Shown piece after piece: positions 6,373-63,665 of a DNA stretch of 64,000 nt. How positions within the stretch are numbered: position 1 is the first letter of the stretch; each line of letters begins with the position of its first letter. The position numbers were made by a program, and so were the translations under genes. The notes under the pieces were generated by a model, which made no database searches, was not told the DNA's origin, and saw nothing but the letters and a program-made list of their open reading frames with translations. This DNA is from a bacterium. Its GTDB lineage: Bacteria > Patescibacteriota > Minisyncoccia > Minisyncoccales > JAZDGI01. The stretch lies in NCBI GenBank assembly GCA_043807085.1, contig JAZDGI010000005.1, positions 5,816 through 69,815 of the forward strand, written 5' to 3'.

Positions 6373-6689
6373 GTTTGGCTTGAGGCGCGGCCGCGACTAG
6401 TATCGGCCGCTCTCCAGGCTGAAAATTTAAAAATCAGCCAGAGGGCCTGGGTTCTGGCGAAAAAAAAGAAAGGAGAAAAACATGCATCCTCGTTTTCACC
6501 CCGTATGTCCAATGTGGCCTTAAATAGATGAGGCCAAACCAGCGGGCGGAGAAGGGTCGTTCTTCTCCGTTCGCTGGGACTCGGCGAGAAGGAGTCGCCG
6601 TCAACAAAGGCCGAGGAGAGAGTAGAGATACTTTCTCCTTGGCCCCCTTTCATTCTTCTCGGTCTTAGTATGTTATATTTTGAAACAAT

Positions 6690-10313: not shown

Positions 10314-10732
10314 ATTTTTACTTTTCTTTTTAAGAGTAGGATACCAAATCCTGAGAAAATAGCAACGGCTATGGCTGTGGACAAGACCCAAAAGAATCCC
10401 GAAGGATTAGGCGGTTGTTCTTTTGGCTGTTCTTTGAGTTGTTCTTTCTGCTCTTGCTCGAAAAGTTCGGCAGGCAGAGCTTTTTCAACCCAGGCCAATC
10501 CTTGTTTTTTAATATCCTCAACTCTTAATTTGCTGATGCCTTTTATTCTAACCAGGTCTTCCAAGGAAGAAAACGGCCTTAAAGAAACCAATTCCAGGCC
10601 TCGAGCCTCTCCTATATGGACAATTTTGATTAGATCGCTCAGAGGAGCGGTATTAATGTCTATTTTTTCTGCGGCGAACACTCCGCGCCAGGCAAAGAAG
10701 AGGAGAAGGACCACTCTTGACAAAAGCTTCAT
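10310..10732 (-). CDS. comEA: ComEA-like helix-hairpin-helix DNA-binding protein
   Basis: 140 aa. Signal/TM at the N-terminus, HhH repeats (INTAPLSDLIKIVHIGEARGLELV...LEDLVRIKGISKLRVEDI), C-terminal TM helix. Confidence 0.8.
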   Translation of the reverse strand: MKLLSRVVLLLFFAWRGVFAAEKIDINTAPLSDLIKIVHIGEARGLELVSLRPFSSLEDLVRIKGISKLRVEDIKKQGLAWVEKALPAELFEQEQKEQLKEQPKEQPPNPSGFFWVLSTAIAVAIFSGFGILLLKRKVKI

Positions 10733-10756
10733 AATATATTACAATACGAAAGATAG

Positions 10757-15601: not shown

Positions 15602-16378
15602 ATGCCCGAATTGCCGGAGGTTGAGACGATACGGCGTCAATTGGCCCGGAAAATTATCGGCAAAAAATTAAACGGCCTGCCGGCCGGCAGGCAAGGCTGG
15701 AAAATTATCGGCGTGCGGAGAAGGGCCAAGCTTTTAATAATTGATTTTGTCGGCGGGCAAAACCTTATTTTTCATCTAAAACTGACCGGTCAGCTGATCT
15801 TTAACGGAAAACCTTCGGCGCATACCCGCAAGGTTTTTAATTTTGGCGACGGCTCGCGGCTAATTTTTAATGACGCCCGGAAGTTCGGCTGGTGGAAAAA
15901 AACGAAAGGAACGGAAAAGATAGAAGATAAATTCGGGCCGGAGGCCTTGGAAATTAGCCTTGATGACTTCAAAAGAGATTTATCCCGAAAACCGAATGCC
16001 AAAATCAAACCTCTCTTGATGGACCAAAAATTTATTGCCGGCATCGGCAATATTTATTCAGATGAAATTTTATTTGCCGCTAGAGTTAATCCCTTGCGCC
16101 GGGTAAAATCCTTGGAGGTTAAAGAGGTTGGGCGAATTCATCAAAGTATCAAAAAAATTTTAGTAGAGGCGATCAAGTGCGGAGGTTCGTCGGTTGAATA
16201 TTATCTTGACGCTTGCGGCAAGAAGGGGGACTATGTTAAGTATCATAAAGTTTATCAAAGGGAAGGCAAAAAATGCTTTCGCTGCGGCGCGAGCATAGAA
16301 AGATTAAAAATCAGCGGCAGATCCGCTCGCTTCTGCCCCAAGTGCCAGCCTTTCGGCACGGCTCAGGGCAAGAAATAA
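15602..16378 (+). CDS. mutM: Formamidopyrimidine-DNA glycosylase
   Basis: N-terminal MPELPEVE, H2TH region, C-terminal zinc finger (CFRCG...CPKC). It carries a 51-nt in-frame insertion (see the repeat at 15648..15712). Confidence 0.92.
   Translation: MPELPEVETIRRQLARKIIGKKLNGLPAGRQGWKIIGVRRRAKLLIIDFVGGQNLIFHLKLTGQLIFNGKPSAHTRKVFNFGDGSRLIFNDARKFGWWKKTKGTEKIEDKFGPEALEISLDDFKRDLSRKPNAKIKPLLMDQKFIAGIGNIYSDEILFAARVNPLRRVKSLEVKEVGRIHQSIKKILVEAIKCGGSSVEYYLDACGKKGDYVKYHKVYQREGKKCFRCGASIERLKISGRSARFCPKCQPFGTAQGKK
15648..15712 (+). repeat. GC-rich palindromic micro-element flanked by a perfect 14-bp direct repeat, in frame in mutM
   Basis: GGAAAATTATCGGC occurs at 15648..15661 and again at 15699..15712. 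Between them lies the perfect 18-nt palindrome GCCTGCCGGCCGGCAGGC at 15675..15692. The repeat period is 51 nt = 17 codons (KIIG[KKLNGLPAGRQGWKIIG]). Confidence 0.9.
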
Positions 16379-16380
16379 TT

Positions 16381-17322
16381 ATGCTTATTTTTCTTTACGG
16401 GCAGGATACTTATAGATCGCGGCAAAAACTGAACGAGATGATTGGAGAATATAAATCGCTCCACAAAAAAGGGCTGAATTTTATAATTTTTGACGGCGCT
16501 GTTTATAATTTTCCCGATCTTAAAAACGAAATTGGGATCGTTTCTATGTTCAGCGACAAAAAACTGATTATCGCCAAGAATATTTTTTCTAATTTAAAGC
16601 TCAAGGACGATTTGCTGAAAAGTTCCGAAAAGCTTATGGGGCTAAAAGACATCATCTTATTTTACGAAGACGGCAAGGTTGCGGCTAGCGACGCTTTATT
16701 GAGGTTTTTGAAAAAGGAGGCTAAATGCCAGGAATTTGAGCCTTTGTCTGGCCAAAAGTTAAAAAATTGGATCAAGCTGGAATTTGAGAAGCAAAAAGCC
16801 AAGGCTTCTCCGGATGTTGCGGAAAAACTTTTCATTTCTTATGACAACGATCTCTGGCGGCTGGCTAATGATATTAAAAAGCTGGCCGTTTTTAAGTTAG
16901 GCCAAAAAGAAGAGATTAATATGACTGATTTCAGGAAGCTGGTAAAAACCGAGATTGAAAGCGATATTTTTAAAACGATTGAGGCGGCCGCTTCAAAGAA
17001 TGTCAAACTAGCGCTTTCTTTACTTCACGGGCATCTTCAGGCAGGCGCTGATCCGCTCTATCTTCTCTCCATGCTGAATTACCAATTTAGAAATATATCA
17101 GAGATCAGGAGTCTAATTGAAAAGGGCGTTCAGTATCAGCTAATCGCCCCGACGACAAAGCTTCATCCTTTTGTCGTCAGAAAAACTTATGCTCTTTGTC
17201 AAAAATTTACTATGGCCGGAATTAAAAAAATCTACCAGAGTATTTTTCAGGCGGACCTAGATATTAAAACCGGGAAGGTTGACGCGGAAACAGCTCTTGA
17301 TTTGCTTATTTCTGGGATTTAG
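16381..17322 (+). CDS. holA: DNA polymerase III delta subunit
   Basis: The family N-terminus MLIFLYGQDTYRSRQKL starts at ATG 16381. The track start at 16273 lies inside mutM and is rejected. Confidence 0.8.
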   Translation: MLIFLYGQDTYRSRQKLNEMIGEYKSLHKKGLNFIIFDGAVYNFPDLKNEIGIVSMFSDKKLIIAKNIFSNLKLKDDLLKSSEKLMGLKDIILFYEDGKVAASDALLRFLKKEAKCQEFEPLSGQKLKNWIKLEFEKQKAKASPDVAEKLFISYDNDLWRLANDIKKLAVFKLGQKEEINMTDFRKLVKTEIESDIFKTIEAAASKNVKLALSLLHGHLQAGADPLYLLSMLNYQFRNISEIRSLIEKGVQYQLIAPTTKLHPFVVRKTYALCQKFTMAGIKKIYQSIFQADLDIKTGKVDAETALDLLISGI

Positions 17323-26895: not shown

Positions 26896-26967
26896 GTCCC
26901 CATAGCTTAACGGATAAAGCGCGGCCCTCCGAAGGCCGAAATCGAGGTTCGATTCCCCGTGGGGACA
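26896..26967 (+). tRNA. tRNA-Arg (anticodon CCG)
   Basis: 72-nt cloverleaf. Acceptor GTCCCCA/TGGGGAC, D arm GCTT/AAGC, anticodon arm CGGCC-CTCCGAA-GGCCG, T loop TTCGATT. There is one A-C mismatch in the T stem, and CCA is not encoded. Confidence 0.85.
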
Positions 26968-37250: not shown

Positions 37251-38978
37251 ATGAAGAACCAAGATTTGGCGAAAATATTTTATGGAATAGCGGATTATTT
37301 GGAGATGGATAGGGTGGCTTTTAAGCCCTTTGCCTGGCGAAAAGTTGCCGTTGTTTTGGAGGCAATGAAAGAAGACGTCGGAGAGGTTTACAAAAAAGGA
37401 GGAAGGAAGGCTTTGGAGGAAATTCCGGGGGTTGGGAAAAGCATTGCTGAAAACATAGAAGAATATCTGAAAACAGGCAAGGTCAAATATTATGAAAGAT
37501 TTAAAAAAAGCCTGCCGATAAATTTACCGGAGATGATTGCGGTTGAGGGGTTAGGCCCTAAAAAAGCCAAGGTTCTTTATGAAAGATTGGGAGTGAAAGA
37601 TTTAAAAACATTGGAAAAGGCGGCTAGGGCCCATAAAATCGCTTCTTTATTCGGATTTGGAGAGAAAACTGAAAAGAATATTTTAGAGGGGATTAACTTT
37701 TTGAAAAGAAGCAAGGGGAGATTTTTGCTGGGAGAAATTCTGCCCAAAGCCGGCGAGGTTTTGGAAAAGCTAAGAAGCTTGAAAGAATCGGAAAAGGTGG
37801 ATATGGCCGGTTCTTTGCGGAGAAAGAAAGAAACTATTGGCGATGTTGATTTTCTGGCTATTTCCAGGAAGCCCAAGCCGATAATGGATTTTTTTGTTTC
37901 TTTGCCCGGAGTTGTCAGAGTCTGGGGCAAGGGTTTGACAAAAACGTCGGTAAGAACGGAAGAAGGCTTTGATATGGATATCAGGGTAGTGCCCAAAAGA
38001 AGTTATGGTTCAGCTCTTCAGTATTTTACAGGGTCTGTGGATCATAATATTGCCACGAGAAAAATTGCCATGGACAAGGGACTGAAGCTTTCTGAATACG
38101 GGCTTTTTAAGGGCTCAAAAATGATTGCCGGCGCTAGCGAAGAGGAGATTTATAAAGCTTTGGGCATGGAATGGATTGAGCCGGAAATAAGGGAAAATCA
38201 GGGTGAAATCGCCGTCGCCCAAAACAATCAACTCCCGAAGCTGATTAATTATAAAGATATTAGGGGTGATTTGCACTGCCATTCCGATTGGGCCGGCGGA
38301 AAAAATTCTATTGAAGATCTGTCAGGAGCCGCTCAAAAAATAGGCTATGAATATCTGGGCATAGCCGACCATACAAAGTTTTTGAGGATTGAACACGGGC
38401 TGGATGAAAGAAAATTAGAATTGAGAAATAAGGAAATTGACAAAATAAACGAAAAATTTAAGGTTCAAGGTTCAAGGTTCAAGATATTGAAGGGTTGCGA
38501 GGCGAATATTTTGAACGACGGCTCAATTGATATTAAGGATGATGCCTTGGCGAAGTTAGATTTTGTTATCGCCGGTATTCACTCCTCTTTCAAAATGGCG
38601 AAAGAAAGAATAACAGAAAGAATAATAAGGGCGATGAGAAATCCCAATGTAGATATTATTTCTCATCCGACAGGTCGAATCTTGAAAAAAAGGGATGAAT
38701 ATCAGATTGATTTCAGCAAAATTTTAAGAATCGCCAAGGAAACCGAGACTATTCTGGAGATAAATTCTTATCCTGAAAGATTAGATTTAAACGACCAGAA
38801 TATCAGGCGAGCCAAAGTCGCGGGAGTAAAAATGATTATTAATACCGACGCTCACCGGAAGGATCAGCTGGTACTTATGGAATTGGGCGTTTCCCAGGCC
38901 CGTCGCGGCTGGGCCGAGAAGGAAAACATAATAAATTGCCGGCCATTAGATAAACTATTAAAATTTTTTAAGAAATAA
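37251..38978 (+). CDS. Family X DNA polymerase with C-terminal PHP domain (PolX)
   Basis: The start is set to ATG 37251 (MKNQDLAKIFYGIADYLEM). HhH motifs, catalytic GDVDFL and PHP motifs (GDLHCHSDW, ADHT, NTDAH). The track's TTG at 37212 lies inside repeat copy 2. Confidence 0.92.
   Translation: MKNQDLAKIFYGIADYLEMDRVAFKPFAWRKVAVVLEAMKEDVGEVYKKGGRKALEEIPGVGKSIAENIEEYLKTGKVKYYERFKKSLPINLPEMIAVEGLGPKKAKVLYERLGVKDLKTLEKAARAHKIASLFGFGEKTEKNILEGINFLKRSKGRFLLGEILPKAGEVLEKLRSLKESEKVDMAGSLRRKKETIGDVDFLAISRKPKPIMDFFVSLPGVVRVWGKGLTKTSVRTEEGFDMDIRVVPKRSYGSALQYFTGSVDHNIATRKIAMDKGLKLSEYGLFKGSKMIAGASEEEIYKALGMEWIEPEIRENQGEIAVAQNNQLPKLINYKDIRGDLHCHSDWAGGKNSIEDLSGAAQKIGYEYLGIADHTKFLRIEHGLDERKLELRNKEIDKINEKFKVQGSRFKILKGCEANILNDGSIDIKDDALAKLDFVIAGIHSSFKMAKERITERIIRAMRNPNVDIISHPTGRILKKRDEYQIDFSKILRIAKETETILEINSYPERLDLNDQNIRRAKVAGVKMIINTDAHRKDQLVLMELGVSQARRGWAEKENIINCRPLDKLLKFFKK
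38460..38483 (+). repeat. Heptanucleotide tandem repeat (AAGGTTC x3 + AAG) in frame in PolX
   Basis: Three perfect 7-nt units (21 nt = 7 codons) encode KVQGSRF(K) between PHP motifs. Confidence 0.95.
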
Positions 38979-40775: not shown

Positions 40776-40801
40776 AAATAATTACTAAATAATTATTGCT
40801 G

Positions 40802-41145
40802 TGGAGGTGGTGGGAATTGGACCCACGTCCGAAAAGTTTTTTCAAAATAATTCTACAGGCTTAGTCCGGTTTTAGTAAGTATAGAATTTAAACCGGGCGA
40901 AAGTTCTATGCTTTGAATCCAAATGTTTTTCAATAGTCTTTCTGGATTCAGGAGAGAACTATTTATCTCGCTGATATGACACCTAATTTTGCCTAGCGAG
41001 AATCAGCAAATTAGATGCCGCTTAAGCGTAAACTAAAGCGGGTTTTTGAAATAAGTTGGCACTTATTATTTTTGCCGTTTTTTAAAAGTTCCGGCAACTT
41101 TGCCTGCTTATTTTAATCGGCTCTTCGTCAAGTCCGATCACCCCC
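40802..41145 (-). ncRNA. ssrA: tmRNA (SsrA)
   Basis: 5' GGGGGUGAUCGGACUUGACG... and a 3' tRNA-like end GGACGUGGGUCCAAUUCCCACCACCUCCA. The acceptor stem GGGGGUG/CACCUCC has the G3:U pair. The tag reading frame at 41022..41060 is GCC AAC ... GCT TAA = ANLFQKPALVYA-stop, preceded by AUAAGU (compare E. coli AUAGUC-GCA AAC). Confidence 0.9.
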
Positions 41146-44594: not shown

Positions 44595-47500
44595 ATGGAT
44601 GTAAACTTTCCGGAGCTTGAGGAGAAAATTTTAAAATTCTGGCGGGAAAACCTGATTTTTAAAAAATCAATTTCACGGCGCAAAAAGAGCCGCAATTTTG
44701 TGTTTTACGAGGGCCCGCCCACGGCCAACGGAAAGCCTGGAATCCATCATGTTTTGACCAGGGTTTTTAAAGACATTATCTGCCGCTATAAAACTATGCG
44801 GGGTTTTAGAGTTGAGAGAAAGGCCGGCTGGGACACTCACGGCTTGCCGGTAGAGCTGGAAGTTGAAAAAAAATTAGGGTTGAAAAATAAAAAAGACATT
44901 GAAAAATACGGCATAGCTAAATTTAATAAAAATTGCCAAGAATCGGTTTGGCAATATAAAAAAGAATGGGAGAAATTAACCGACAGGATTGGTTTTTGGC
45001 TTGACGAGGACAATCCGTACGTCACCTATCAAACGGAATACATTGAAACCGTTTGGCATATTTTGAAGCGGATTTACCAAAAAGGCCTGCTTTATCATGA
45101 TTACAAGGTGGTTCCTTATTGCCCAAGGTGTGGAACTACCTTATCCAGCCACGAGGTTGCCCAAGGATACGAAAAGATCAAAGATCCTTCTATTTTCGTC
45201 AAATTCAGGATTAAAAATCCGGAATTCAAAGATTCTTATTTGCTGATTTGGACCACTACTCCCTGGACGTTGCCAGGCAACGTGGCGATTGCCGTTAATC
45301 CCGAGATGGCTTATGCCAAAATCAAATCGCCAGATATAGAAGAGTATTTAATTTTAGCTAAAGACAAAATAGCCGAACGGCAAATAAAAGGAAAAATAGT
45401 CCAAGAATTTAAGGGAAAGGATTTAGCCGGATTGGCTTACGAGCCAGCGTACGCTGACGAGGATTTTTCTAAAAGCGCCTACAGAGTCATTTTGGCTGAT
45501 TTTGTTTCTTTGGAAAGCGGCACTGGTTTAGTTCATATTGCCCCGGGTTTTGGATTGGAAGATATGGAAGCTGTAAAAAATCAAAACACAGAATCAAAAA
45601 GGCAGGGTCTGCCCGAACTCCCAATTTTATTGCCAGTGAACGAAGAAGGGAAATTCGCGCTTGACGCCAAGAAGTGGGCCGGAATGTTTGTCAAAGAAGC
45701 GGACCCTTTGATTATTAACGATCTGAAAGAAAGGGGTTTTTTGTTCGCTGAAGAATTATACGAACACGATTACCCTTTTTGCTGGCGCTGTCATTCTCCG
45801 CTGCTTTATTACGCCAGAAAATCTTGGTTTATTCAGACGACCAAAATTAAGGACGATCTTATTGGGAATAATCAAAAAATAAATTGGGTTCCGGTTCATT
45901 TGAAAGAAGGAAGATTCGGCGAGTGGTTAAGAGATTTGAAAGACTGGGCTTTGACCAGAGAAAGATATTGGGGAACTCCCCTGCCTATTTGGCAATGCAA
46001 GACCTGCGGAAAGCAGGAAATTATCGGCTCTAGAAAAGAACTATTCGGCCGAGCTTCTTCGGGCAGCAGATATTTTATTTTCCGCCACGGGTATTCTTTA
46101 AGGCAGATTAAAAAGGTATCTTCCTGCTGGCCGGAAAAAGTACCATTTCCCTTGACGAAAAAAGGAGAGAGGGAGGTTGAGGTCGCGGCGAAAAAACTAA
46201 AAAATAAAAAAATTGACTTAATTTTTTCCTCCGACCTGTTGAGAGCGAAGCAAACCGCCCGAATTATCGCCAAAGAAACCGGAGCCAAAATAATTATCGC
46301 CAAGCAATTGAGGGATTATAACGTGGGAGTTTTTAACTATAAAAATCCGAAATTATCTTGGGAATATTTGGAGAAAAGCGAAAATCCGATTTTAACGAAA
46401 TTGCCCAAGGGAGAGAGTCTGGCAAATATCAGAAAAAGAATGTACGAATTTTTAAAAAGAGTAAATGAAAAATACCCGGCAAAAAACATTGTTATCGTGT
46501 CTCACGAGCTCCCTTTGACGATTTTAGAGCAGACCTTAAGCGGCTTGGAATTAGAAGAAATATTGAAACAAAGGGCGCAGCGGAAAATAAATCCAATCGC
46601 TACGGCCGAATGGCGGGAGATAAAGTTTAAAACCCTTCCCTTTAACGGCAATTACGAAATAGATCTCCACCGCCCTTATATTGACGAAATGAAATTTCAG
46701 TGTCTGGGTTGTCAGGGTGAGATGGAAAGGGTTTCTGAAGTTATAGATTGCTGGTTTGATTCGGGCTCTATGCCCTTTGCCCAGGCGCGCTGGCCGTTCA
46801 GCGGAAACTTGAAGCCTGAACCCTCTGGCGCGAAACCTCCGAAACTGTTCCCGGCAGATTATATTGCCGAAGGGGTTGATCAGACGAGAGGCTGGTTTTA
46901 CACCCTATTGGCGATCTCCACGCTTTTAGGATTTGGTTCTCCCTACAAGAATGTCATTTCCTTGGGCCATATTTTAGATGAAAAGGGAGAAAAAATGTCA
47001 AAATCGAAAGGTAATATTGTTGATCCGTGGTATATTGCCGGCCGGTACGGGGCAGACGCCGCCCGTTGGTATTTTTATACCGTCAACCAGCCCGGCGAAG
47101 CGAAATTGTTTTCAGAGAAAGATATTGACCAGGCATTAAAAAGATTTATTTTGATATTTTGGAATTGTTTTACCTTCTGGGAAACATACAAAAAAAATTC
47201 AAAAGTCAAAAGCCAAAAGACAAAACCAAAGAATGTTTTAGATAGGTGGATTATTTCCAGGCTGAACCGGCTGGTTTTAGAAGCGACCGAATCTTTGGAC
47301 AGATTTGATGTGACAGGCGCGGCTAGAATTATTGAAAATTTTGTAATCAACGATTTGTCTTTGTGGTATATTAGAAGATCCAGAAAGCGGTTCAAAGAGA
47401 TTGAGAATTTTTTAGCCCTTATTCTTTTGGCTGTATGCAAACTTGGCGCGCCCTTCTTTCCTTTTTTGAGCGAAGAAATATACCAAAAAATTTCCGGTTG

Positions 47501-48065
47501 CCGATTTTCAGCTTCCAAATCAGTGCATTTGGAAAAGTGGCCGATAGCGGATAAAAAATTAATTGATAAAAAACTGGAGGGAAGCATGAACGAGGTTCGC
47601 GAGATAGTCAATTTAGGATTGAGAGAAAGGGCGAAGTCGGGCATTAAGGTCAGGCAGCCTCTCGGTAAATTACAAATTACAAATTGCAAATTACAAAAAG
47701 AGGAAGAACTTCTGGGGCTAATAAGAGAAGAGGTTAATGTTAAGGAAATTACTTTCGGCGAGTCTTTAAGGCTAGATACGGAAATAACCGAAGAACTTGA
47801 AAGGGAAGGAATTGTTCGGGAAGTTGTTCGTCAGATTCAGGGAATGAGAAAAGAGGCAAAATTGCGGCCGAAAGATAAAATTTCAGTGAGCTATTTAGCC
47901 GAAGGCGAATTGGGCGAAATTTTGGAAAAAAGTAAAAGTTTGATGCTGGAGGAGGCGAATATAAGCGATTTAGTCCGACGAAGAGAGATTTCGGGGGAGT
48001 TTCTCGCTCAAAAAGAAATAAAGGTCGGCGATGAAAAATTATGGCTGGGAATTAAGAAAATTTAA
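44595..48065 (+). CDS. ileS: Isoleucine--tRNA ligase with an inserted histidine-phosphatase (PGAM-like) domain
   Basis: 1156 aa. HIGH-type motif (GKPGIHHV), CP1 editing domain, KMSKS. Residues ~487-685 (nt ~46053..46655) form an extra domain with RHG, LTKKGE, SSDLLRAKQTA and SHE motifs. Confidence 0.95.
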   Translation: MDVNFPELEEKILKFWRENLIFKKSISRRKKSRNFVFYEGPPTANGKPGIHHVLTRVFKDIICRYKTMRGFRVERKAGWDTHGLPVELEVEKKLGLKNKKDIEKYGIAKFNKNCQESVWQYKKEWEKLTDRIGFWLDEDNPYVTYQTEYIETVWHILKRIYQKGLLYHDYKVVPYCPRCGTTLSSHEVAQGYEKIKDPSIFVKFRIKNPEFKDSYLLIWTTTPWTLPGNVAIAVNPEMAYAKIKSPDIEEYLILAKDKIAERQIKGKIVQEFKGKDLAGLAYEPAYADEDFSKSAYRVILADFVSLESGTGLVHIAPGFGLEDMEAVKNQNTESKRQGLPELPILLPVNEEGKFALDAKKWAGMFVKEADPLIINDLKERGFLFAEELYEHDYPFCWRCHSPLLYYARKSWFIQTTKIKDDLIGNNQKINWVPVHLKEGRFGEWLRDLKDWALTRERYWGTPLPIWQCKTCGKQEIIGSRKELFGRASSGSRYFIFRHGYSLRQIKKVSSCWPEKVPFPLTKKGEREVEVAAKKLKNKKIDLIFSSDLLRAKQTARIIAKETGAKIIIAKQLRDYNVGVFNYKNPKLSWEYLEKSENPILTKLPKGESLANIRKRMYEFLKRVNEKYPAKNIVIVSHELPLTILEQTLSGLELEEILKQRAQRKINPIATAEWREIKFKTLPFNGNYEIDLHRPYIDEMKFQCLGCQGEMERVSEVIDCWFDSGSMPFAQARWPFSGNLKPEPSGAKPPKLFPADYIAEGVDQTRGWFYTLLAISTLLGFGSPYKNVISLGHILDEKGEKMSKSKGNIVDPWYIAGRYGADAARWYFYTVNQPGEAKLFSEKDIDQALKRFILIFWNCFTFWETYKKNSKVKSQKTKPKNVLDRWIISRLNRLVLEATESLDRFDVTGAARIIENFVINDLSLWYIRRSRKRFKEIENFLALILLAVCKLGAPFFPFLSEEIYQKISGCRFSASKSVHLEKWPIADKKLIDKKLEGSMNEVREIVNLGLRERAKSGIKVRQPLGKLQITNCKLQKEEELLGLIREEVNVKEITFGESLRLDTEITEELEREGIVREVVRQIQGMRKEAKLRPKDKISVSYLAEGELGEILEKSKSLMLEEANISDLVRRREISGEFLAQKEIKVGDEKLWLGIKKI
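47199..47226 (+). repeat. Heptanucleotide-periodic repeat in ileS (TCAAAAG TCAAAAG CCAAAAG ACAAAAC)
   Basis: Four 7-nt units read through as SKVKSQKTKP. Confidence 0.8.
47667..47694 (+). repeat. Heptanucleotide tandem repeat in ileS (AAATTAC x2, AAATTGC, AAATTAC)
   Basis: Four 7-nt units with one substitution encode KLQITNCKLQ. Confidence 0.95.
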
Positions 48066-55374: not shown

Positions 55375-56826
55375 ATGTCAACCAAGACAACCAAGAAAAA
55401 AACATTTTATATTACCACCAGCATTCCCTATGTTAACGCGCCGCCGCACATAGGTTTTGCCCAGGAACTGATCCAGGCGGATGTTTTGGCCCGCTATCAC
55501 CGCGGCTTGAGCGAAGACGTTTTCTTTCTGACCGGTACCGACGAGAACGGCTTAAAAAACGCGCTGGCGGCTGAAAAAGCAGGGAAGACTCCCCAAGAAT
55601 TTGTTGATGAAATATCAGAAAAATTTAGGCTTTTGACAAAAAGTTTGAACCTATCAAACGACGATTTTATCAGAACTAGCGACAAAAAGAGGCATTGGCC
55701 AGCCGCTCAAAAAGTTTGGTCTCTGCTAAAAGAGAGCGGGGATATTTACAAAAAGAAATACAGGGGCCTTTATTGCGTCGGCTGTGAAGCTTTTATCAAA
55801 GAAAAAGACCTTGTTAACGGACAATGTCCGGTTCATCTGAAAAAGCCAGAAGTTTTAGGGGAAGAGAATTATTTTTTCCGGCTGTCAAAATACGCAGCTT
55901 TAGTAGAAAAGGAAATCAGAGAAAATAAGATAAAAATCGTCCCGGAATCCAAAAAAAATGAAATTTTGAATTTTATAAGTCAGGGAGTTGAAGATGTCAG
56001 CTGCTCCCGCTCAAAAGAGAAGTTAAAATGGGGAGTGCCGGTTCCAGGCGACCAAAACCAGATAATTTATATCTGGCTGGAGGCGCTTTCAAATTATATT
56101 TCTGCTTTAAATTACGCTTCAAACGGAGACAAATTTAAAAAATTCTGGCCGGCCGATATTCATTGCATGGGAAAAGATATTTTCCGTTTTCACGCCTTGC
56201 TCTGGCCAGCGGTGCTTGTGTCTATTAAATTGCCTTTGCCCAAGACAATTTTTGTACGCGGATTTATGACTTCCGGCGGTCAAAAAATGTCAAAGTCATT
56301 AGGCAATGTTGTTGATCCTTTTGAACTGGTAAAGAAATATGGGACAGACGCTGTTCGCTATTTTCTTTTGCGGGAAATTCCAGCGACAGAGGATGGAGAT
56401 TTTACTATTGAAAAATTTGAACAGAGATATAATAGCGATTTGGCAAGTGGTTTAGGGAATTTAGTAGCCAGAGTAATAACGATGGCTAAAAATCCGAAAT
56501 CCGAAATCCGAAGCACGAAACAAATTCAAAATTTTAAATTCCAGACAACAATAAATAAAACTAAGAAAGATTACGAAAAATCCTTAGAAGAGTTTAGGTT
56601 TAATGAGGCGTTGATTGCGATTTGGGAGTTGATTAGTTTTTGCGACGAATATATTGAAAAAGAAAAGCCGTGGGAGGGAGGAAAAAATGATGTTATTAGC
56701 GGTTTGTTATTCGTCATTAGCCAGCTAGCAGAATTATTAGAGCCATTTTTGCCTGAAACCGCGGAAAAAATAACTAAACAGCTTAAAATCCAAAAAAGCG
56801 AACTATTATTCCCCCGTTTAAAATGA
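55375..56826 (+). CDS. metG: Methionine--tRNA ligase
   Basis: 483 aa. TSIPYVNAPPHIGF (HIGH-type), zinc knuckle CVGCEAF...CPVH, KMSKS. Confidence 0.95.
   Translation: MSTKTTKKKTFYITTSIPYVNAPPHIGFAQELIQADVLARYHRGLSEDVFFLTGTDENGLKNALAAEKAGKTPQEFVDEISEKFRLLTKSLNLSNDDFIRTSDKKRHWPAAQKVWSLLKESGDIYKKKYRGLYCVGCEAFIKEKDLVNGQCPVHLKKPEVLGEENYFFRLSKYAALVEKEIRENKIKIVPESKKNEILNFISQGVEDVSCSRSKEKLKWGVPVPGDQNQIIYIWLEALSNYISALNYASNGDKFKKFWPADIHCMGKDIFRFHALLWPAVLVSIKLPLPKTIFVRGFMTSGGQKMSKSLGNVVDPFELVKKYGTDAVRYFLLREIPATEDGDFTIEKFEQRYNSDLASGLGNLVARVITMAKNPKSEIRSTKQIQNFKFQTTINKTKKDYEKSLEEFRFNEALIAIWELISFCDEYIEKEKPWEGGKNDVISGLLFVISQLAELLEPFLPETAEKITKQLKIQKSELLFPRLK
56490..56517 (+). repeat. Heptanucleotide tandem repeat in metG (AAATCCG x3 + AAGCACG)
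   Basis: Three perfect units and one degenerate unit encode (K)NPKSEIRST. A further 7-nt-periodic tail (AAACAAA TTCAAAA TTTTAAA) follows. Confidence 0.95.
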
Positions 56827-56827
56827 A

Positions 56828-57667
56828 ATGCTGATTGATACTCACGCGCATTTGAATTTTAACGCGTTTAAAGACGATGCCGACGAGGTGATTCGTCGGT
56901 CTTTGGCTGGAGGGGCTAAAATGATAAATGTCGGCTCGCAGTATTCAACATCAAAGCGGGCGGTGGAAATAGCTGAATCCGCCAGCTGGCGAGATAAAGG
57001 TGTTTACGCGGCAATCGGCCTTCATCCTGTTCATCTGGCTGATGGAATTTTTGAGGCGAAATTAGATAAAGAAGAAATAGCTTTCCGAGCGGACAACGAA
57101 AATTTTGATTACAAAAGATATAAAGATTTAGCCGAGTCAAAAAAGGTGGTGGCCGTGGGCGAGATCGGCTTGGATTACTATTATTATCCCAAAAATAAAG
57201 CAAAGTTAAGCCAATTTATAAATAGGCAGAAAAAGGCCATCTCTGACCAAATGCATTTGGCCGAAGAATTAAATTTGCCTGTAATTTTTCATTGCCGCAG
57301 CGCTCATAATGACCTAATAAACGAGATCGGATCTCCTAAAATAACGGGCGCTATCCACTGCTTTACAGGAACGTGGGAAGACGCAAAAAGATATTTAGCA
57401 ATGGGATTTTACCTCGGCTTTAACGGCATAATTTTTAAGCTAAACTTAGACGATATAATCAAGAAAACGCCGCTGGATAGGATTTTGCTGGAAACCGATT
57501 GTCCTTATTTGGCGCCTCCGCCCGCCGTAGCTTTAGCGAAGGAGGGCCGCAACGAACCTCTTTTCATAAAATATGTCGCGCAAAAAATCGCCGAGCTAAA
57601 GGGCGAAACTTTCGAAAAGATTGCCGAAATCACCACTCAAAACGCCCAAAATCTCTTCAGAATTTAA
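56828..57667 (+). CDS. TatD family metal-dependent hydrolase
   Basis: 279 aa. IDTHAHLNF, GEIGLDYY, FHCR, ETDCPYLAP. Confidence 0.92.
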   Translation: MLIDTHAHLNFNAFKDDADEVIRRSLAGGAKMINVGSQYSTSKRAVEIAESASWRDKGVYAAIGLHPVHLADGIFEAKLDKEEIAFRADNENFDYKRYKDLAESKKVVAVGEIGLDYYYYPKNKAKLSQFINRQKKAISDQMHLAEELNLPVIFHCRSAHNDLINEIGSPKITGAIHCFTGTWEDAKRYLAMGFYLGFNGIIFKLNLDDIIKKTPLDRILLETDCPYLAPPPAVALAKEGRNEPLFIKYVAQKIAELKGETFEKIAEITTQNAQNLFRI

Positions 57668-61969: not shown

Positions 61970-63665
61970 ATTTATGATTAAAGACAGCAACAAAATATTT
62001 TTGCTTGGAAATGAGGCGATAGTGCGCGGGGCTTTAGCCTCGGGCGTTGATTTTGTGGCAACGTATCCAGGGACGCCTTCTTCGGAAATCGGCAACATCT
62101 TCAATAAAATTGCCAAAGAAAACGGCGTTTATTTTGAATTTTCCACTAACGAAAAGGCGGCTTTGGAGGCTGGAATAGGAGCTTCGTTTTCTGGATTGAA
62201 AACAATGGTGGCGATGAAAAATTTCGGCCTTAACGTTTGCCTGGATTCTTTAATTCCGTTTGTTTATACTGGCAGCAAAGGAGCGACCGTTATCGTCGTG
62301 GCTGACGATCCTTCCTGTCACAGCTCGGCCCAGTCAGAAGAAAATACAAGGCCGATAGCTGATTTGGCCCATATCCCGATTCTAGAGCCGGCCGATCCGC
62401 AGGAATGTTTTGATTTTGTGAAGCTCGGCTTTGAAATTTCCGAAAAGTTTAGCCTTCCGATTTTGATCAGGACGACAACAAGAGTGGCGCATCAAAGCGC
62501 TCAAGTAAGTTTGGGCGAAATCCGAAATCCAAAACCCCTGCCTGGCCGGCAGGCAGGCGAAATCCAAAATGGCAGGTTTGTTAGAGATCAAAAAAGGTTC
62601 GTGACGATGCCGCCGCGGGTTTTGGAGATGAAAAAAGAGCTTTTGGAAAAAATAGAAAAAATCCGGCTTTTCGCTGAGCAAAACACAAAAAACAAGACAC
62701 AAAATACGAAAATAGGTATAATTACCTCCGGAGTTTCTTATTTATATGTCATGGAGGCGTTAAAGGAACTCAATTTAAATTTGCCGGCTTTGAAGCTTGA
62801 TTTTTTCTATCCTTTGCCGGAAAAGAAAATTAAAAGTTTCATTAAGAATTTTAAAAAGGTCTTAATCGTTGAGGAATTGGAGCCGTTTTTGGAAAAAGAA
62901 ATTGAAAGATTGGCAAAAGAAGCTAATTGCCGGCTTGAAATTCACGGCAAAGATTTATTGCCAATCGTCGGCGAGCTCAAACCAGAAATCGTTGAAGTCG
63001 CTATCGCCAAACTCGTCGGCAGAAAATTAGAAATTAGAAATTCGAAATTAGAAATTTCGCAGATTAAGCATCTGCCGAGGTTTTGCCCGGGATGCCCATA
63101 TCATATGGTTTTTGCAGCGATAAAAAAAGCTACTCCTTTGGATGCGATTTTTGGCGGCGACATCGGCTGTTATATGCTGGGAGCGATTCCGCCTCAAGGG
63201 CTTTACGATTACCTTTCTTCAATGGGGTCATCTATCGGCATTGGGCATGGAGTTTCCAAGGCAACCAACCAGAAGGTGATTACTTTTATCGGGGACTCAA
63301 CTTTTTTCCATGCCGGAATTCCCGCTTTATTGAATGCGGTTTTTAATAAATCAAATCCTTTGATTATTATTTTAGATAACGGCACAACGGCCATGACCGG
63401 CCATCAGCCGAATCCGGGCACAGCCGTGAAAAAAGATTCTAAATACGAATTTGAATGGAAAGGCTATGGACAAAACTCACTGGCGTCAGAAAAGCCATTA
63501 TCCATTGAGGAAATTGTTAAGGCCTGCGGCGTTAAAAATTTAAAAGTCGTTAATTCTTTCAATCTAAGCGAAGTGGAAGCTGCCGTGAAAGAATTTTTGC
63601 CGAGAGCAGAAGTTTCAGTAATAATCGCCCGGGGAATCTGCGCCTTGCTCGCCAAAAAATTATGA
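61962..63665 (+). CDS. iorA: Indolepyruvate:ferredoxin oxidoreductase alpha subunit-like (TPP enzyme)
   Basis: 567 aa. LLGNEAIVRGALASGVDFVATYPGTPSSEI, a CPGCPY motif and a TPP-binding GDSTFFHAG. It contains several micro-repeats. Confidence 0.85.
   Translation: MSKFMIKDSNKIFLLGNEAIVRGALASGVDFVATYPGTPSSEIGNIFNKIAKENGVYFEFSTNEKAALEAGIGASFSGLKTMVAMKNFGLNVCLDSLIPFVYTGSKGATVIVVADDPSCHSSAQSEENTRPIADLAHIPILEPADPQECFDFVKLGFEISEKFSLPILIRTTTRVAHQSAQVSLGEIRNPKPLPGRQAGEIQNGRFVRDQKRFVTMPPRVLEMKKELLEKIEKIRLFAEQNTKNKTQNTKIGIITSGVSYLYVMEALKELNLNLPALKLDFFYPLPEKKIKSFIKNFKKVLIVEELEPFLEKEIERLAKEANCRLEIHGKDLLPIVGELKPEIVEVAIAKLVGRKLEIRNSKLEISQIKHLPRFCPGCPYHMVFAAIKKATPLDAIFGGDIGCYMLGAIPPQGLYDYLSSMGSSIGIGHGVSKATNQKVITFIGDSTFFHAGIPALLNAVFNKSNPLIIILDNGTTAMTGHQPNPGTAVKKDSKYEFEWKGYGQNSLASEKPLSIEEIVKACGVKNLKVVNSFNLSEVEAAVKEFLPRAEVSVIIARGICALLAKKL
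62517..62569 (+). repeat. Composite: GAAATCC heptamers plus a GC-rich palindrome flanked by an 11-nt direct repeat, in frame in iorA
   Basis: GAAATCC occurs at 62517, 62524 and 62559. The hairpin is CCTGCCTG-GCCGG-CAGGCAGG at 62537..62557. GAAATCCAAAA occurs at 62524..62534 and again at 62559..62569. The segment encodes EIRNPKPLPGRQAGEIQN. Confidence 0.9.
62679..62713 (+). repeat. Degenerate heptanucleotide-periodic tract in iorA
   Basis: CAAAACA CAAAAAA CAAGACA CAAAATA CGAAAAT encodes (E)QNTKNKTQNTKI. Confidence 0.7.
63024..63051 (+). repeat. Heptanucleotide tandem repeat in iorA (AAATTAG x2, AAATTCG, AAATTAG)
   Basis: Encodes KLEIRNSKLE. The one variant unit (TCG in place of TAG) removes what would otherwise be an in-frame stop codon. 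Confidence 0.95.

What the first reader, a model, noticed from the sequence alone, without database searches (positions are those of the whole stretch)
38460..38483. Period-7 tandem repeats embedded in frame in housekeeping genes: PolX example and family overview
AAGGTTC x3 (21 nt = 7 codons, KVQGSRF) sits between PHP motifs of PolX, in a position that looks like an added loop. The same phenomenon occurs at six more sites in this window:
- ileS 47199..47226 (TCAAAAG-type)
- ileS 47667..47694 (AAATTAC-type)
- metG 56490..56517 (AAATCCG-type)
- iorA 62517..62569 (GAAATCC-type)
- iorA 62679..62713 (CAAAACA-type)
- iorA 63024..63051 (AAATTAG-type)
Coding-sequence repeats normally have a period divisible by 3. 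Here the period is always 7, so each array is read in all three frames and gives characteristic peptides (KLEIRNSKLE, KLQITNCKLQ, NPKSEIRS). Point substitutions sit where a unit would create a stop codon (AAATTAG to AAATTCG). Several unit sequences are related to each other (AAAT[TC][AC][CG]). This points to a DNA-level process, such as slippage or a heptamer-generating element, whose products survive only where the frame is preserved. I am not aware of a described mechanism.
Basis: seen in the sequence. Interest (0 to 1): 0.65.

Follow-up and report, generated by a model that had tools for sequence, protein, structure and literature searches.

The report
Heptamer microsatellites inside essential genes
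Short runs of a repeated 7-base unit sit in frame inside surface loops of housekeeping genes of this candidate-phyla-radiation bacterium and its relatives; they are rewritten again and again without changing length, which puts a known kind of repeat (heptanucleotide microsatellite) in a setting I could not find described.

Summary
All seven period-7 arrays are at the stated coordinates, and period 7 is the only enriched period in the window and in 1.37 Mb from 80 related Patescibacteria (Nealsonbacteria/Paceibacteria-type) genomes: 107 arrays against at most 6 for any other period.

A DNA-level process with a 7-nt register is supported. "21-nt insertions that survive where the frame is kept" is not.

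- All seven sites are clade-wide hot spots in variable loops or linkers.
- Segment length is conserved: the PolX segment is 43 aa in 99 of 120 orthologues and IorA site 3 is 93 nt in most lineages.
- The repeated unit differs between lineages, even between PolX genes that are 94-96% identical in DNA.
- Arrays are therefore homogenised in place (concerted evolution).
- Arrays are 2.3 times denser in intergenic DNA, where a clean one-unit (7-nt) indel is seen.
- Units are about 80% A+T. In genes the A-rich strand is the sense strand and most units are stop-free.

Best reading: heptanucleotide microsatellites maintained by one-unit misalignment, with only length-neutral outcomes surviving in essential genes. 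Heptamer bias in prokaryotic repeats is published (2007). NeuO is a precedent for translated heptamers. The origin of the 7-nt register remains unexplained.

The parts
38460..38483 (+). Heptamer array AAGGTTC x3.4 (perfect) in PolX (ORF 37251-38978), aa 404-411 KVQGSRFK. It lies in the loop before the conserved strand (K/R)(I/V)L-G-C-E of the PHP domain.
   Evidence: The loop position comes from the alignment to T. thermophilus PolX 3b0x. It is a clade-wide hot spot of fixed length with a covarying 2x7-aa repeat.
47194..47225 (+). Imperfect heptamer array (AAAATTC AAAAGTC AAAAGCC AAAAGAC AAAA) in IleS (ORF 44595-48065), aa 867-877 KNSKVKSQKTK. It lies in the linker before the anticodon-binding domain.
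   Evidence: It overlays the variable linker of T. thermophilus IleRS 1ile. Orthologues carry other heptamer-type peptides in the same linker, such as NPKPKNPKPKN, KTPNSKLQTPNSK and TTYNLQLTTYN.
47667..47697 (+). Heptamer array AAATTAC x4.4 (one G variant) in IleS, aa 1025-1035 KLQITNCKLQK.
   Evidence: About 115 orthologues have a 7-aa repeat directly after the RQPL motif, with covarying halves, for example ELRIKNYELR, KLKIKNEKLKI, SLKIRNPKSEIRN and NFQFSISNFQ.
56490..56542 (+). Compound array in MetG (ORF 55375-56826). The layout is AAATCCG x3.3 (56490-56512), one degenerate unit, AAAC, then degenerate AAATTCA AAATTTT AAATTCC (56521-42). The peptide is KNPKSEIRSTKQIQNFKFQ.
   Evidence: It overlays a loop of A. 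aeolicus MetRS 2csx. L015 and L045 share the same [4 units]AAAC[3 units] layout and the same 47-aa length with different units.
62517..62572 (+). Heptamer array GAAATCC GAAATCC AAAACC...CGAAATCC AAAATGG in IorA (ORF 61974-63665, aa 182-200). It is split by a 21-nt GC-rich palindrome, CCTGCCTGGCCGGCAGGCAGG (62537-62557), read in frame as PLPGRQAG.
   Evidence: The segment is coil with low pLDDT in the AF2 model. The site is a hot spot in orthologues. P0020 has a similar hairpin-in-array arrangement at this site.
62679..62712 (+). Degenerate heptamer array (CAAAACA CAAAAAA CAAGACA CAAAATA CGAAAA) in IorA, aa 236-247 QNTKNKTQNTKI.
   Evidence: AF2 predicts coil with pLDDT below 50. The site is a hot spot with other units in L016, L043, L048, L060 and L072.
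63024..63056 (+). Heptamer array AAATTAG x4.7 in IorA, aa 351-361 KLEIRNSKLEI. The third unit is AAATTCG, exactly where TAG would fall in frame.
   Evidence: AF2 predicts coil with pLDDT below 50. The site carries arrays of at least 8 unit types across orthologues, at a constant 93 nt in most.

Best explanation
The arrays are heptanucleotide microsatellites, that is, long simple-sequence repeats with a 7-nt unit. They are a genome-wide feature of this Nealsonbacteria/Paceibacteria-type lineage of Patescibacteria.

How they most likely work:
1. AT-rich 7-nt units, usually 4-5 copies (30-35 nt), arise and are kept homogeneous by misalignment of DNA strands by one unit. The misalignment could occur during replication or repair: slipped-strand pairing, transient dislocation of the primer, or out-of-register strand annealing.
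2. In intergenic DNA such events can change the copy number.
3. In essential genes a 7-nt change is a lethal frameshift. Only length-neutral outcomes survive, in which one unit is copied over its neighbour.
4. The array is therefore rewritten in place. Its position and length stay fixed for a long time, while the unit sequence drifts and is re-homogenised (concerted evolution).
5. Selection then filters which arrays persist in genes. They must lie in structurally permissive loops, have the A-rich strand as sense strand (hydrophilic peptides rich in K, N, Q, I and S), and have stop-free units or a retained odd base where a stop would fall in frame.

Shown directly: the period-7 excess; occurrence in coding and non-coding DNA; loop location; fixed length with changing unit; stop avoidance; AT-richness.
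Inferred: the misalignment and conversion mechanism, and the reason for the 7-nt register. For the latter the only published idea is the footprint of the DNA polymerase.
For: Period-7 excess:
- Window. 80 related loci. A T4 control has none.

The process is genome-wide, not coding-specific:
- 94.3% of the DNA is coding, yet only 99 of 113 arrays are fully coding. Non-coding density is 2.3 times higher (p=0.006).
- One non-coding array differs from its orthologue by exactly one 7-nt unit (L051 7464 against L045).

Loop location:
- PDB alignments.
- AF2 model of IorA: all three sites are coil with pLDDT below 62, or below 50.

Fixed position and length with changing unit:
- PolX segment is 43 aa in 99 of 120 orthologues, with at least 57 different repeat peptides. 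The two heptads of one protein share 2.88 of 7 residues, against 1.73 +/- 0.10 for shuffled partners.
- Three PolX genes 94-96% identical in DNA carry (GCAAATT)4, (GAAAAAT)4 and an AAGGTT-type array in the same 39 nt. That region has 25-26 variable sites per 45 nt, against a gene mean of 3.5.
- IorA site 3 is 93 nt in most lineages, with units AAATTAG, AAATACA, AAATTCA, AAGATAC, AACATCC and AAATTGA.
- L013 and L016 differ by one base in every unit.
- The MetG compound array keeps its layout and its 47-aa length while the units change.
- IleS site 2 behaves the same way in about 115 orthologues.

Selection filter:
- 72 of 99 coding consensus units are stop-free in sense, against 37 of 99 for their reverse complements and 52% expected from base composition.
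- Units are 77-81% A+T in both coding and non-coding arrays, against 62% for the genome.

Local origin:
- Arrays of one genome do not share units more often than arrays of different genomes (3 of 119 pairs, P=0.51).

Precedent:
- Heptanucleotide repeats are the most abundant long-SSR class in most prokaryotes, with a slippage/polymerase-footprint hypothesis (Mrazek et al. 2007, as cited in PMC4679880 and PMC4692102).
Against: - No event was observed directly. Four strains with 99% identity show no length change in their array, and their 4 substitutions there are compatible with neutral point mutation.
- Slippage alone does not explain why period 7 is favoured over periods 6 and 9. Those periods would be frame-neutral and should have more proto-repeats in Lys-rich coding DNA.
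- Perfect arrays have a second length mode at 30-35 nt, with few at 23-29 nt. A simple stepwise slippage equilibrium does not predict this. It hints at burst-like creation or a 3-unit quantum.
- A-richness and G-depletion (A 0.50, G 0.06) exceed what stop avoidance predicts.
- Some hypervariability could come from recombination with diverged alleles. Mosaic haplotypes are seen in IorA.
- Array density differs strongly between lineages (chi-square p=6.5e-15). This calls for a lineage-specific factor that I could not identify.
Confidence: 0.6

Rival explanations
1. In-frame insertion model. Arrays are additions of 3 units (21 nt) produced by slippage, and only frame-preserving products survive. 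Copy number therefore changes in steps of three units.
For: - Perfect lag-7 runs show a second mode at m=23-28, corresponding to seeds of 2-7 matching bases plus 21. Counts are zero at m=22 and m=29.
- At IorA site A, L040 (15 nt, about 2 units) and L013 (36 nt, 5 units) differ by exactly 21 nt.
- neuO shows that heptamer tracts are translated when the copy number is divisible by 3.
Against: - Among 548 IorA pairs with >=85% identity there are no 7-aa or 14-aa indels. Indels at arrays are 2-6 aa.
- Coding length differences between close species are 9, 12, 15 or 18 nt, or most often 0.
- PolX, IorA site 3 and the MetG site keep a constant length while the unit changes completely.
- Arrays overlay pre-existing loops in solved homologues.
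- A gain of 3 units in one step from 1.3-2 copies needs three slips in a single replication pass.
Confidence: 0.12
2. The arrays are by-products or targets of very small GC-rich hairpin mobile elements. They would be repeated target-site duplications or excision footprints, or part of a composite element made of array, hairpin and array. This would parallel the small dispersed repeats embedded in tandem heptamers of Nostoc.
For: - Window IorA site 1 has a 21-nt palindrome inside its array.
- Element E1 (GCAACCCTACGGGGAGTC + hairpin + CAGC) occurs 4 times in 3 species, in both orientations, and always inside a heptamer array. Element E2 lies between arrays in L004 and L017.
- The 14-nt palindrome CCGCCAGCTGGCGG sits inside arrays in L022, L045 and L048.
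- GC-rich hairpins have lag-7 periodic flanks in 2.1% of cases, against 0.5% of control positions.
- Window 15648-15712 shows such an insert with a 14-nt (2x7) flanking direct repeat.
Against: - Only about 5% of arrays carry a hairpin. With strict criteria 4 of 113 arrays have one within 12 nt, against 2.2 expected.
- Units are highly diverse and are not shared within genomes.
- Flanking repeats inside an array cannot be read as target duplications.
- Co-location can be explained if both kinds of change are tolerated only in the same permissive loops.
- No transposase or other element-encoded protein was linked to the arrays.
Confidence: 0.12
3. The arrays are kept because repetition itself is useful. 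Possible uses are flexible or beta-hairpin surface loops in the proteins, unstructured A-rich mRNA segments, or binding sites for a factor that recognises 7-nt spacing.
For: - Position and length are conserved across a large clade.
- The peptides alternate polar and hydrophobic residues around an N-S or G-N turn (KFKIQNSKFKI), which is compatible with a hairpin. This is inference only.
- Array density differs between lineages.
Against: - The 7-nt sub-period is not needed for any peptide function.
- Unit sequences are too diverse for a sequence-specific binder.
- Arrays are denser in intergenic DNA.
- AF2 gives low-confidence coil, not hairpins, at all three IorA sites.
- Many orthologues carry decayed arrays at the same sites.
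Confidence: 0.08
4. Chance low-complexity sequence of an AT-rich genome, or an assembly artefact.
For: The genome is AT-rich (39-46% G+C) and comes from a metagenome assembly.
Against: - Shuffles give about 0 arrays and other periods are not enriched.
- An AT-rich control has none.
- The arrays occur in MAGs from many groups and assemblers, in a single-cell genome (L015) and in complete genomes (L002, L033).
- The ORFs stay intact through the arrays.
Confidence: 0.01

Closest known systems
Heptanucleotide long simple-sequence repeats of prokaryotes (Mrazek, Guo & Shah 2007, as summarised in PMC4679880 and PMC4692102)
   Same: - Tandem 7-nt units are over-represented relative to all other unit lengths.
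- The proposed origin is strand slippage tied to a roughly 7-nt polymerase footprint.
- Occurrence is scattered among lineages.
   Different: - The published cases are mainly intergenic, and that survey noted that coding regions favour unit lengths divisible by 3.
- Here about 88% of arrays are inside genes, many of them essential.
- They sit at conserved hot spots with fixed length and evolve in concert.
neuO poly-heptanucleotide tract (AAGACTC)n of E. coli K1 / phage CUS-3 (PMC13001214)
   Same: - A 7-nt unit lies inside a coding sequence and is read in all three frames as a 7-aa repeat.
- The unit is A-rich and stop-free, and resembles units found here (AAAACTC, AAGATTC).
- Slippage is the accepted mechanism.
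   Different: - neuO is a contingency locus with 3-53 copies that switches the gene on and off.
- Here arrays have 3-6 copies in essential genes.
- No length polymorphism was seen among close strains, and the frame is never lost.
Cyanobacterial STRR heptamers, and the small dispersed repeats (SDR) embedded in tandem heptamers of Nostoc punctiforme. Sources: Mazel et al. 1990 (from my own memory); PMC4692102 mentions three tandemly repeated heptanucleotides in Calothrix. Elhai et al. 2008: content recalled from memory; the title is cited in papers found; the paper itself was not readable here.
   Same: Tandem heptamers occur together with 14-35-nt GC-rich hairpin elements lodged inside them, which is also seen here.
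   Different: - Different phylum and different unit sequences (G/C-rich in cyanobacteria, about 80% A+T here).
- The cyanobacterial arrays are mostly intergenic and longer.
- The association here is weak statistically.
Intergenic heptamer families: GGGAATC of Xanthomonas, GGGGA(T/C)T of Nostoc (PMC4692102) and TAACTGA of Beggiatoaceae (PMC4679880)
   Same: - Period 7 and many copies per genome.
- Length and sequence vary between close species.
- For TAACTGA, a few in-ORF arrays exist in the stop-free orientation, at protein termini.
   Different: Those are single dominant units per genome with proposed regulatory or G-quadruplex roles. Here there are more than 50 different units per clade and no dominant unit.
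Tandem repeats of Borg elements that create disordered regions in proteins (PMC9879509)
   Same: DNA-level tandem repeats arise within ORFs, evolve rapidly and encode low-complexity, hydrophilic peptide segments.
   Different: Borg repeats inside ORFs always have unit lengths divisible by three. Here the unit is 7 nt.
Low-complexity inserts in housekeeping proteins of AT-rich genomes such as Plasmodium falciparum (own knowledge, not checked here)
   Same: Repeat-derived hydrophilic loops (Asn/Lys-rich) are tolerated in surface regions of essential enzymes, and a mutational (slippage) origin is favoured.
   Different: Those repeats are codon-based and expand the protein. Here the period is 7 nt and protein length is conserved.

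Membership tests
Simple-sequence repeat / microsatellite, heptanucleotide class | Head-to-tail copies of a short (1-11 nt) unit, longer than expected by chance | tested here: met
   TRF and my own census against shuffles.
Simple-sequence repeat / microsatellite, heptanucleotide class | Unit sequence generated locally, not a dispersed copy of one element | tested here: met
   There are 53 distinct units among 99 coding arrays. Units are not shared within genomes beyond chance. At IorA site A the array starts from the ancestral AAAATT.
Simple-sequence repeat / microsatellite, heptanucleotide class | Length change by whole units between relatives | tested here: inconclusive
   One clean 7-nt indel was found in a non-coding array (L051 against L045), and one 21-nt difference in a coding array. 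Most coding comparisons show 0 difference, or 9-18 nt. There is no polymorphism among strains that are 99% identical.
Contingency locus / phase-variable gene (neuO type) | Copy number varies between close strains and switches the reading frame on and off | tested here: not met
   No length variation was seen within 90%-identity clusters of IorA and PolX or among four strains at 99% identity. All host ORFs are intact, and the hosts are essential genes.
Miniature mobile element (MITE / REP / SDR-like) | A conserved sequence present in many copies, usually with inverted repeats or a hairpin | tested here: not met
   The arrays themselves have diverse units and no inverted repeat. The feature is met only by the separate GC-rich palindromes that sometimes sit inside arrays.
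Miniature mobile element (MITE / REP / SDR-like) | Presence/absence polymorphism with target-site duplication at otherwise identical sites | tested here: inconclusive
   This holds for the hairpin inserts: 30-nt E1 in L051 against L045 and in L017 against L013, and a 14-nt direct repeat at window 15648/15699. It was not shown for the arrays. Flanking repeats inside an array are uninformative.
Amino-acid tandem repeats of the Borg type | Repeat unit length inside ORFs divisible by three | tested here: not met
   The unit is 7 nt, whereas Borg repeats are always divisible by 3.
Diversity-generating retroelement target | A template repeat and variable repeat pair, with adenine-specific differences and a nearby reverse transcriptase | not tested
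   No search for a reverse transcriptase or a template repeat was made. The hypervariable segments are internally repetitive and occur in many unrelated housekeeping genes, which does not resemble DGR targets (inference).

The most novel reading that the evidence does not exclude
A dedicated DNA-level activity, still unidentified and specific to some lineages, rewrites patches of about 30-35 nt as reiterated copies of a local 7-nt template. It acts at fixed loop positions of essential genes and in spacers. It is mechanistically linked to the tiny GC-rich hairpin elements that lodge in the same arrays. The same unexplained pairing of heptamer array and mini-hairpin, seen in Nostocales cyanobacteria and here in Patescibacteria, would then reflect a shared and undescribed repair or mobility mechanism rather than ordinary polymerase slippage.
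Probability: 0.25. Interest if true: 0.8.

Novelty: new variant of a known kind. Interest (0 to 1): 0.6.

Why it matters
1. It shows that a repeat class thought to be excluded from coding DNA, because its unit is not divisible by 3, can pervade essential genes. These include aminoacyl-tRNA synthetases, PolX and IorA. The repeats change by conversion rather than by length, which creates small hypervariable surface loops.
2. These loops differ completely between genes that are 94-96% identical. This matters for alignment, phylogeny, strain typing and assembly of candidate-phyla-radiation genomes.
3. The clean contrast between period 7 and the frame-neutral periods 6 and 9 makes the old question of why prokaryotic repeats favour heptamers sharply testable in a lineage with tiny genomes and reduced repair.
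4. The co-occurrence with mini-hairpin elements parallels an unexplained cyanobacterial phenomenon.

Tried and rejected
- **Polarity of array decay.** I compared identity to the consensus unit upstream and downstream of the perfect core. There was no significant asymmetry (0.41 against 0.49, p=0.15), so there is no evidence for directional growth.
- **Association of arrays with GC-rich hairpins, strict criteria.** 4 of 113 arrays have a hairpin nearby, against 2.2 expected. Seen from the hairpins' side there is only a weak enrichment. I therefore rejected hairpins as the general cause.
- **Intragenomic spread of one cassette.** Units are not shared within genomes. Rejected.
- **Copy-number polymorphism in 90%-identity protein clusters and in four strains at 99% identity.** None was found at the arrays. 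The indels that were found are other in-frame inserts of 33, 54 and 66 nt.
- **Strand bias in non-coding arrays relative to flanking genes.** The counts were 8 concordant, 3 discordant and 3 neutral, read by eye. This is too few to use.
- **Literature.** Searches for a description in candidate-phyla-radiation bacteria found nothing. Mrazek 2007 and Elhai 2008 could not be read directly and are cited second-hand or from memory.
- **Rfam.** The scan found only a tmRNA and a tRNA, and nothing at the arrays.
- **Other ideas considered and not pursued for lack of any supporting feature:** telomere-like or reverse-transcriptase addition, DGR, off-target CRISPR integration, and programmed frameshifting.
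Full report
**1. What the window is.** The four host ORFs are PolX (37251-38978), IleRS (44595-48065), MetRS (55375-56826) and the alpha subunit of indolepyruvate:ferredoxin oxidoreductase, IorA (61974-63665) (Pfam). The exact IorA and PolX proteins exist once in the public collection, in an NCBI "MAG: bacterium" contig of 71,254 bp. Their nearest relatives (74-76% identity) are Nealsonbacteria, Paceibacteria and other "Patescibacteria group" MAGs. G+C is 39-46%.

- A mismatch-tolerant census of the window finds five arrays with score >=12 at period 7. It finds none at any other period from 4 to 15 except 14. Dinucleotide shuffles give about zero.
- I fetched 80 loci around IorA from one genome per species of related Patescibacteria (1.37 Mb).
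- There, arrays with >=3 copies and TRF score >=40 number 107 at period 7, and at most 6 at any other period. My own detector gives 125 against at most 35.
- Perfect lag-p runs longer than 14 are essentially confined to p=7.
- Fifty kilobases of phage T4 (34% G+C) contain none.

The phenomenon is therefore real, specific to period 7, and a property of the clade rather than of this window.

**3. Where the arrays lie.** With a liberal gene call, 94.3% of the 1.43 Mb is coding. Ninety-nine of 113 arrays (>=21 nt) are fully inside genes. The non-coding density is therefore 2.3 times higher (p=0.006).

- Intergenic arrays have the same size, about 30 nt. Half of their consensus units carry stop triplets on the + strand, and six of the 14 do so on both strands.
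- The process is genome-wide, and genes keep roughly 40% of the intergenic density.
- Density differs strongly among lineages (chi-square 219, 80 d.f., p=6.5e-15). Thirty-five loci have none, against 23 expected.

**4. The arrays are in loops but are not insertions.**

- Against solved structures, the PolX array overlays the loop between a helix and the strand LLAGAE of the PHP domain of T. thermophilus PolX. The net change is +4 aa.
- The MetRS array overlays an existing loop of the anticodon-binding domain, net +2 aa.
- IleRS array 1 overlays the linker before DRW, net -3 aa.
- An AlphaFold2 model of the window's IorA (mean pLDDT 71.9) puts all three arrays in coil with pLDDT below 62, or below 50.

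Against clade orthologues the segments are not longer at all.

- The PolX segment between the (G/A)x(A/T/S)DH motif and the strand ending in G-C-E is 43 aa in 99 of 120 orthologues, the window included.
- IorA site 3 is 93 nt in most lineages.
- The MetRS site is 47 aa in the window and in L015, L021, L038 and L045.

**5. Every site is a clade-wide hot spot where the unit changes and the length does not.**

*IorA.* Arrays recur at five positions (window aa ~49, ~184, ~246, ~320 and ~352-361) in 70 orthologues. At site 3 the units are AAATTAG (window), AAATACA (L013, 6.3 perfect copies), AAATTCA (L016), AAGATAC (L051), AACATCC (L045), AAATTGA (L003, L008, L015, L020, L028, L054) and AAATTGG (L032). 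Other lineages carry decayed versions. L013 and L016 (82% aa identity) differ by one base in every unit. L045 and L051 (86%) differ by 2-3 bases per unit. L007 and L013 show the same pattern in LeuRS. All of these have zero length difference.

*PolX.* Nearly all 120 orthologues have a 2 x 7-aa repeat whose second copy runs into the conserved strand. Examples are SKFKIQN|SKFKIL, VKCQMSN|VKCRIL, YKLKTIN|YKLKVL, FQFPISN|FQFRIL and, in the window, EKFKVQG|SRFKIL. The two heptads of one protein share 2.88 of 7 residues, against 1.73 +/- 0.10 with shuffled partners. Relatedness inflates this contrast.

The clearest case is three PolX genes that are 94-96% identical in DNA. In the same 39 nt they carry (GCAAATT)4, (GAAAAAT)4 and an AAGGTT-type array. 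That region has 25-26 variable sites per 45 nt, against a gene mean of 3.5, and identical sequence immediately on both sides.

*MetRS.* The site keeps a compound layout, [4 units]AAAC[3 units]AAAC, in the window, L015 and L045, with units AAATCCG, AAATTCC/AAATTAC and AAATTCC.

*IleRS.* About 115 IleRS orthologues (many of them partial sequences) have a covarying 7-aa repeat directly after RQPL, and the linker at site 1 holds heptamer-type peptides in many.

This is concerted evolution at constant length.

**6. What kinds of change are seen.**

- Among 548 IorA pairs with >=85% identity, indels at arrays are 2, 3, 4 or 6 aa, never 7 or 14.
- Between close species, coding arrays differ by 0 nt most often, or by 9, 12, 15 or 18 nt.
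- One intergenic array differs by exactly one 7-nt unit, and another by 25 nt.
- One comparison (L040 against L013 at IorA site A) is exactly 21 nt.
- Perfect arrays show a second length mode at 30-35 nt. This would fit seeds plus three units.
- Four strains at 99% DNA identity show no length change. Four of their 25 substitutions fall in the 42-nt array. That is compatible with neutral change in an unconstrained loop.

Whole-unit slippage is thus visible where it is harmless. In genes the surviving outcome is replacement in place.

**7. Signs of selection and of the process itself.**

- On the sense strand, coding arrays are A 0.50, T 0.27, C 0.17 and G 0.06.
- Seventy-two of 99 consensus units are stop-free, against 37 of 99 for their reverse complements and 52% expected from base composition. 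Stop avoidance therefore explains much of the strand choice, and the excess of C over G (TCA is allowed, TGA is not).
- Stop avoidance does not explain the A-richness. Stop-free random heptamers would be A 0.29 and G 0.22.
- Non-coding arrays are A 0.41 and T 0.40.
- About 80% A+T is therefore a property of the process, as expected if local melting and re-pairing are involved.
- Where the unit contains a stop (AAATTAG, AAATTGA), the array is interrupted exactly at the in-frame position. The window has AAATTCG. L008 and relatives restart the array after AAT TCA.
- Units are not shared within genomes beyond chance, which argues against a moving cassette.

**8. Mechanism.** The data fit arrays that misalign by one unit during replication or repair. 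In spacers this gives copy-number change. In essential genes any net change of 7 or 14 nt is lethal. What is seen there is the length-neutral result, in which a unit is overwritten by its neighbour. That both homogenises the array and lets a new variant sweep through it.

This is inference; no event was watched. It does not explain why the register is 7 rather than the frame-neutral 6 or 9. Those periods are almost absent, although Lys-rich coding DNA should offer more proto-repeats for them. It also does not explain the 30-35-nt mode. The only published idea is that about 7 nt is the stretch held by the polymerase (Mrazek et al. 2007, as reported in PMC4679880 and PMC4692102).

**9. Comparison with what is known.**

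- Heptanucleotide repeats are reported as the most abundant long-SSR class in most prokaryotic genomes. The same survey noted that coding regions favour units divisible by three.
- Single-unit intergenic families are described in Xanthomonas and Nostoc and in Beggiatoaceae.
- neuO of E. coli K1 carries (AAGACTC)n in its 5' coding region and is translated when n is divisible by 3. It is a phase-variable contingency locus with 3-53 copies.
- Borg tandem repeats inside ORFs are always divisible by three.
- I found no paper on heptamers in candidate-phyla-radiation genomes.

The present case is a member of the heptanucleotide-SSR kind. It differs in setting and behaviour: short arrays, essential genes, fixed hot spots and length, and rapid in-place turnover.

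**10. A second layer: mini-hairpins.** Small GC-rich palindromes are inserted in frame in the same loops.

- In the window these are CCTGCCTGGCCGGCAGGCAGG inside the IorA array, and a relative in fpg/mutM (15672-15693) flanked by a 14-nt direct repeat.
- A variant of the 14-nt palindrome CCGCCAGCTGGCGG lies at 56979. Exact or one-mismatch copies occur 13 times in 1.43 Mb, against about 0.005 expected for an exact 14-mer (my own estimate).
- In relatives, a ~30-nt element (E1) occurs four times in both orientations, always within heptamer arrays. Another element (E2) lies between arrays of different unit.
- Statistically the link is modest and may only reflect shared permissive sites.
- It recalls the small dispersed repeats embedded in tandem heptamers of Nostoc (Elhai et al. 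2008, from memory), and it is the basis of the more novel reading.

**11. Verdict.** The arrays are heptanucleotide microsatellites rewritten in place. This is a new variant of a known kind, with an unexplained 7-nt register and an intriguing association with mini-hairpin elements.

Noticed in passing
window 62537-62557: A 21-nt GC-rich palindrome, CCTGCCTGGCCGGCAGGCAGG, is inserted in frame (PLPGRQAG) in the middle of the GAAATCC array of IorA. Related copies occur in L045 17467, L049 16503 and L039 5402. The orthologue P0020 has a similar hairpin-in-array arrangement at the same site.
   Followed up: partly
window 15648-15712: The N-terminus of an Fpg/MutM-like ORF (15602-16378, MPELPEVE...) carries an in-frame insert containing the palindrome ACGGCCTGCCGGCCGGCAGGCA. 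The insert is flanked by a perfect 14-nt direct repeat, GGAAAATTATCGGC (15648-15661 and 15699-15712). It looks like a mini-insertion with a target duplication of 2x7 nt.
   Followed up: partly
window 56979-56992; L007 3043 and 4747, L013 1329, L019 334 and 10853, L022 694, L045 10145, L048 255, L051 10865 and 11300: The 14-nt perfect palindrome CCGCCAGCTGGCGG is often extended to ATCCGCCAGCTGGCGGAT and is usually read as PPAGG. Counting exact and one-mismatch copies, it occurs 13 times in 1.43 Mb, in different genes and species, against about 0.005 expected for an exact 14-mer (my own estimate). Among IorA proteins that are about 90% identical it shows up as a 4-aa presence/absence difference (PPAG, PPTG). 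It could be a hyper-abundant palindrome like HIP1, a restriction-modification-related site or an uptake signal. Its nature is not resolved.
   Followed up: partly
L017 ~6445-6476 (- strand), L051 ~3603-3640 and ~7493-7535, L060 ~2470-2510 (- strand); L004 3420-3453, L017 ~10700-10735, L051 ~16660-16695: There are two families of 30-36-nt GC-rich hairpin elements. E1 is GCAACCCTACGGGGAGTC + short hairpin + CAGC. E2 is CCCCGAAGCAGAGCAAGCTCGCTACGGGGCAGG. They are inserted in frame in housekeeping genes of several species, in both orientations. All four E1 copies lie inside heptamer arrays.
   Followed up: partly
window 46074-46568 (IleS aa 494-658): The isoleucyl-tRNA synthetase carries an inserted histidine-phosphatase (His_Phos_1, PF00300) domain of about 165 aa, placed between the catalytic core and the C-terminal half. 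It is absent from T. thermophilus IleRS (the alignment breaks at residues 488/689). The same Pfam domain is listed for several clade IleRS fragments.
   Followed up: no
L081 against L082/L084 (IorA site 2); P0128 against P0080; P0086 against P0147: IorA alleles that are 98-100% identical differ by in-frame GC-rich inserts of 54 nt, 22 aa (about 66 nt) and 11 aa (about 33 nt). The 54-nt insert is accompanied by 6 substitutions in the next 20 nt. It also assorts independently of the array variants, which suggests allele exchange by recombination.
   Followed up: partly
loci L001-L080: Array density is very uneven among lineages. L016, L050, L054, L013 and L001 are rich. The Staskawiczbacteria-type loci L034, L059, L061, L075 and L078 have none. 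This suggests a lineage-specific factor. Density correlates weakly and negatively with G+C (Spearman rho = -0.31).
   Followed up: partly
window 40799-41145 (-) and 26896-26967 (+): A tmRNA gene (135.6 bits) and a tRNA gene are the only Rfam matches at gathering threshold.
   Followed up: no
one search hit list (IleS C-terminal half): Most IleRS relatives in the protein collection are fragments from short contigs. Many contigs apparently end inside this gene. Repeats or micro-heterogeneity at the arrays may break assemblies there.
   Followed up: no
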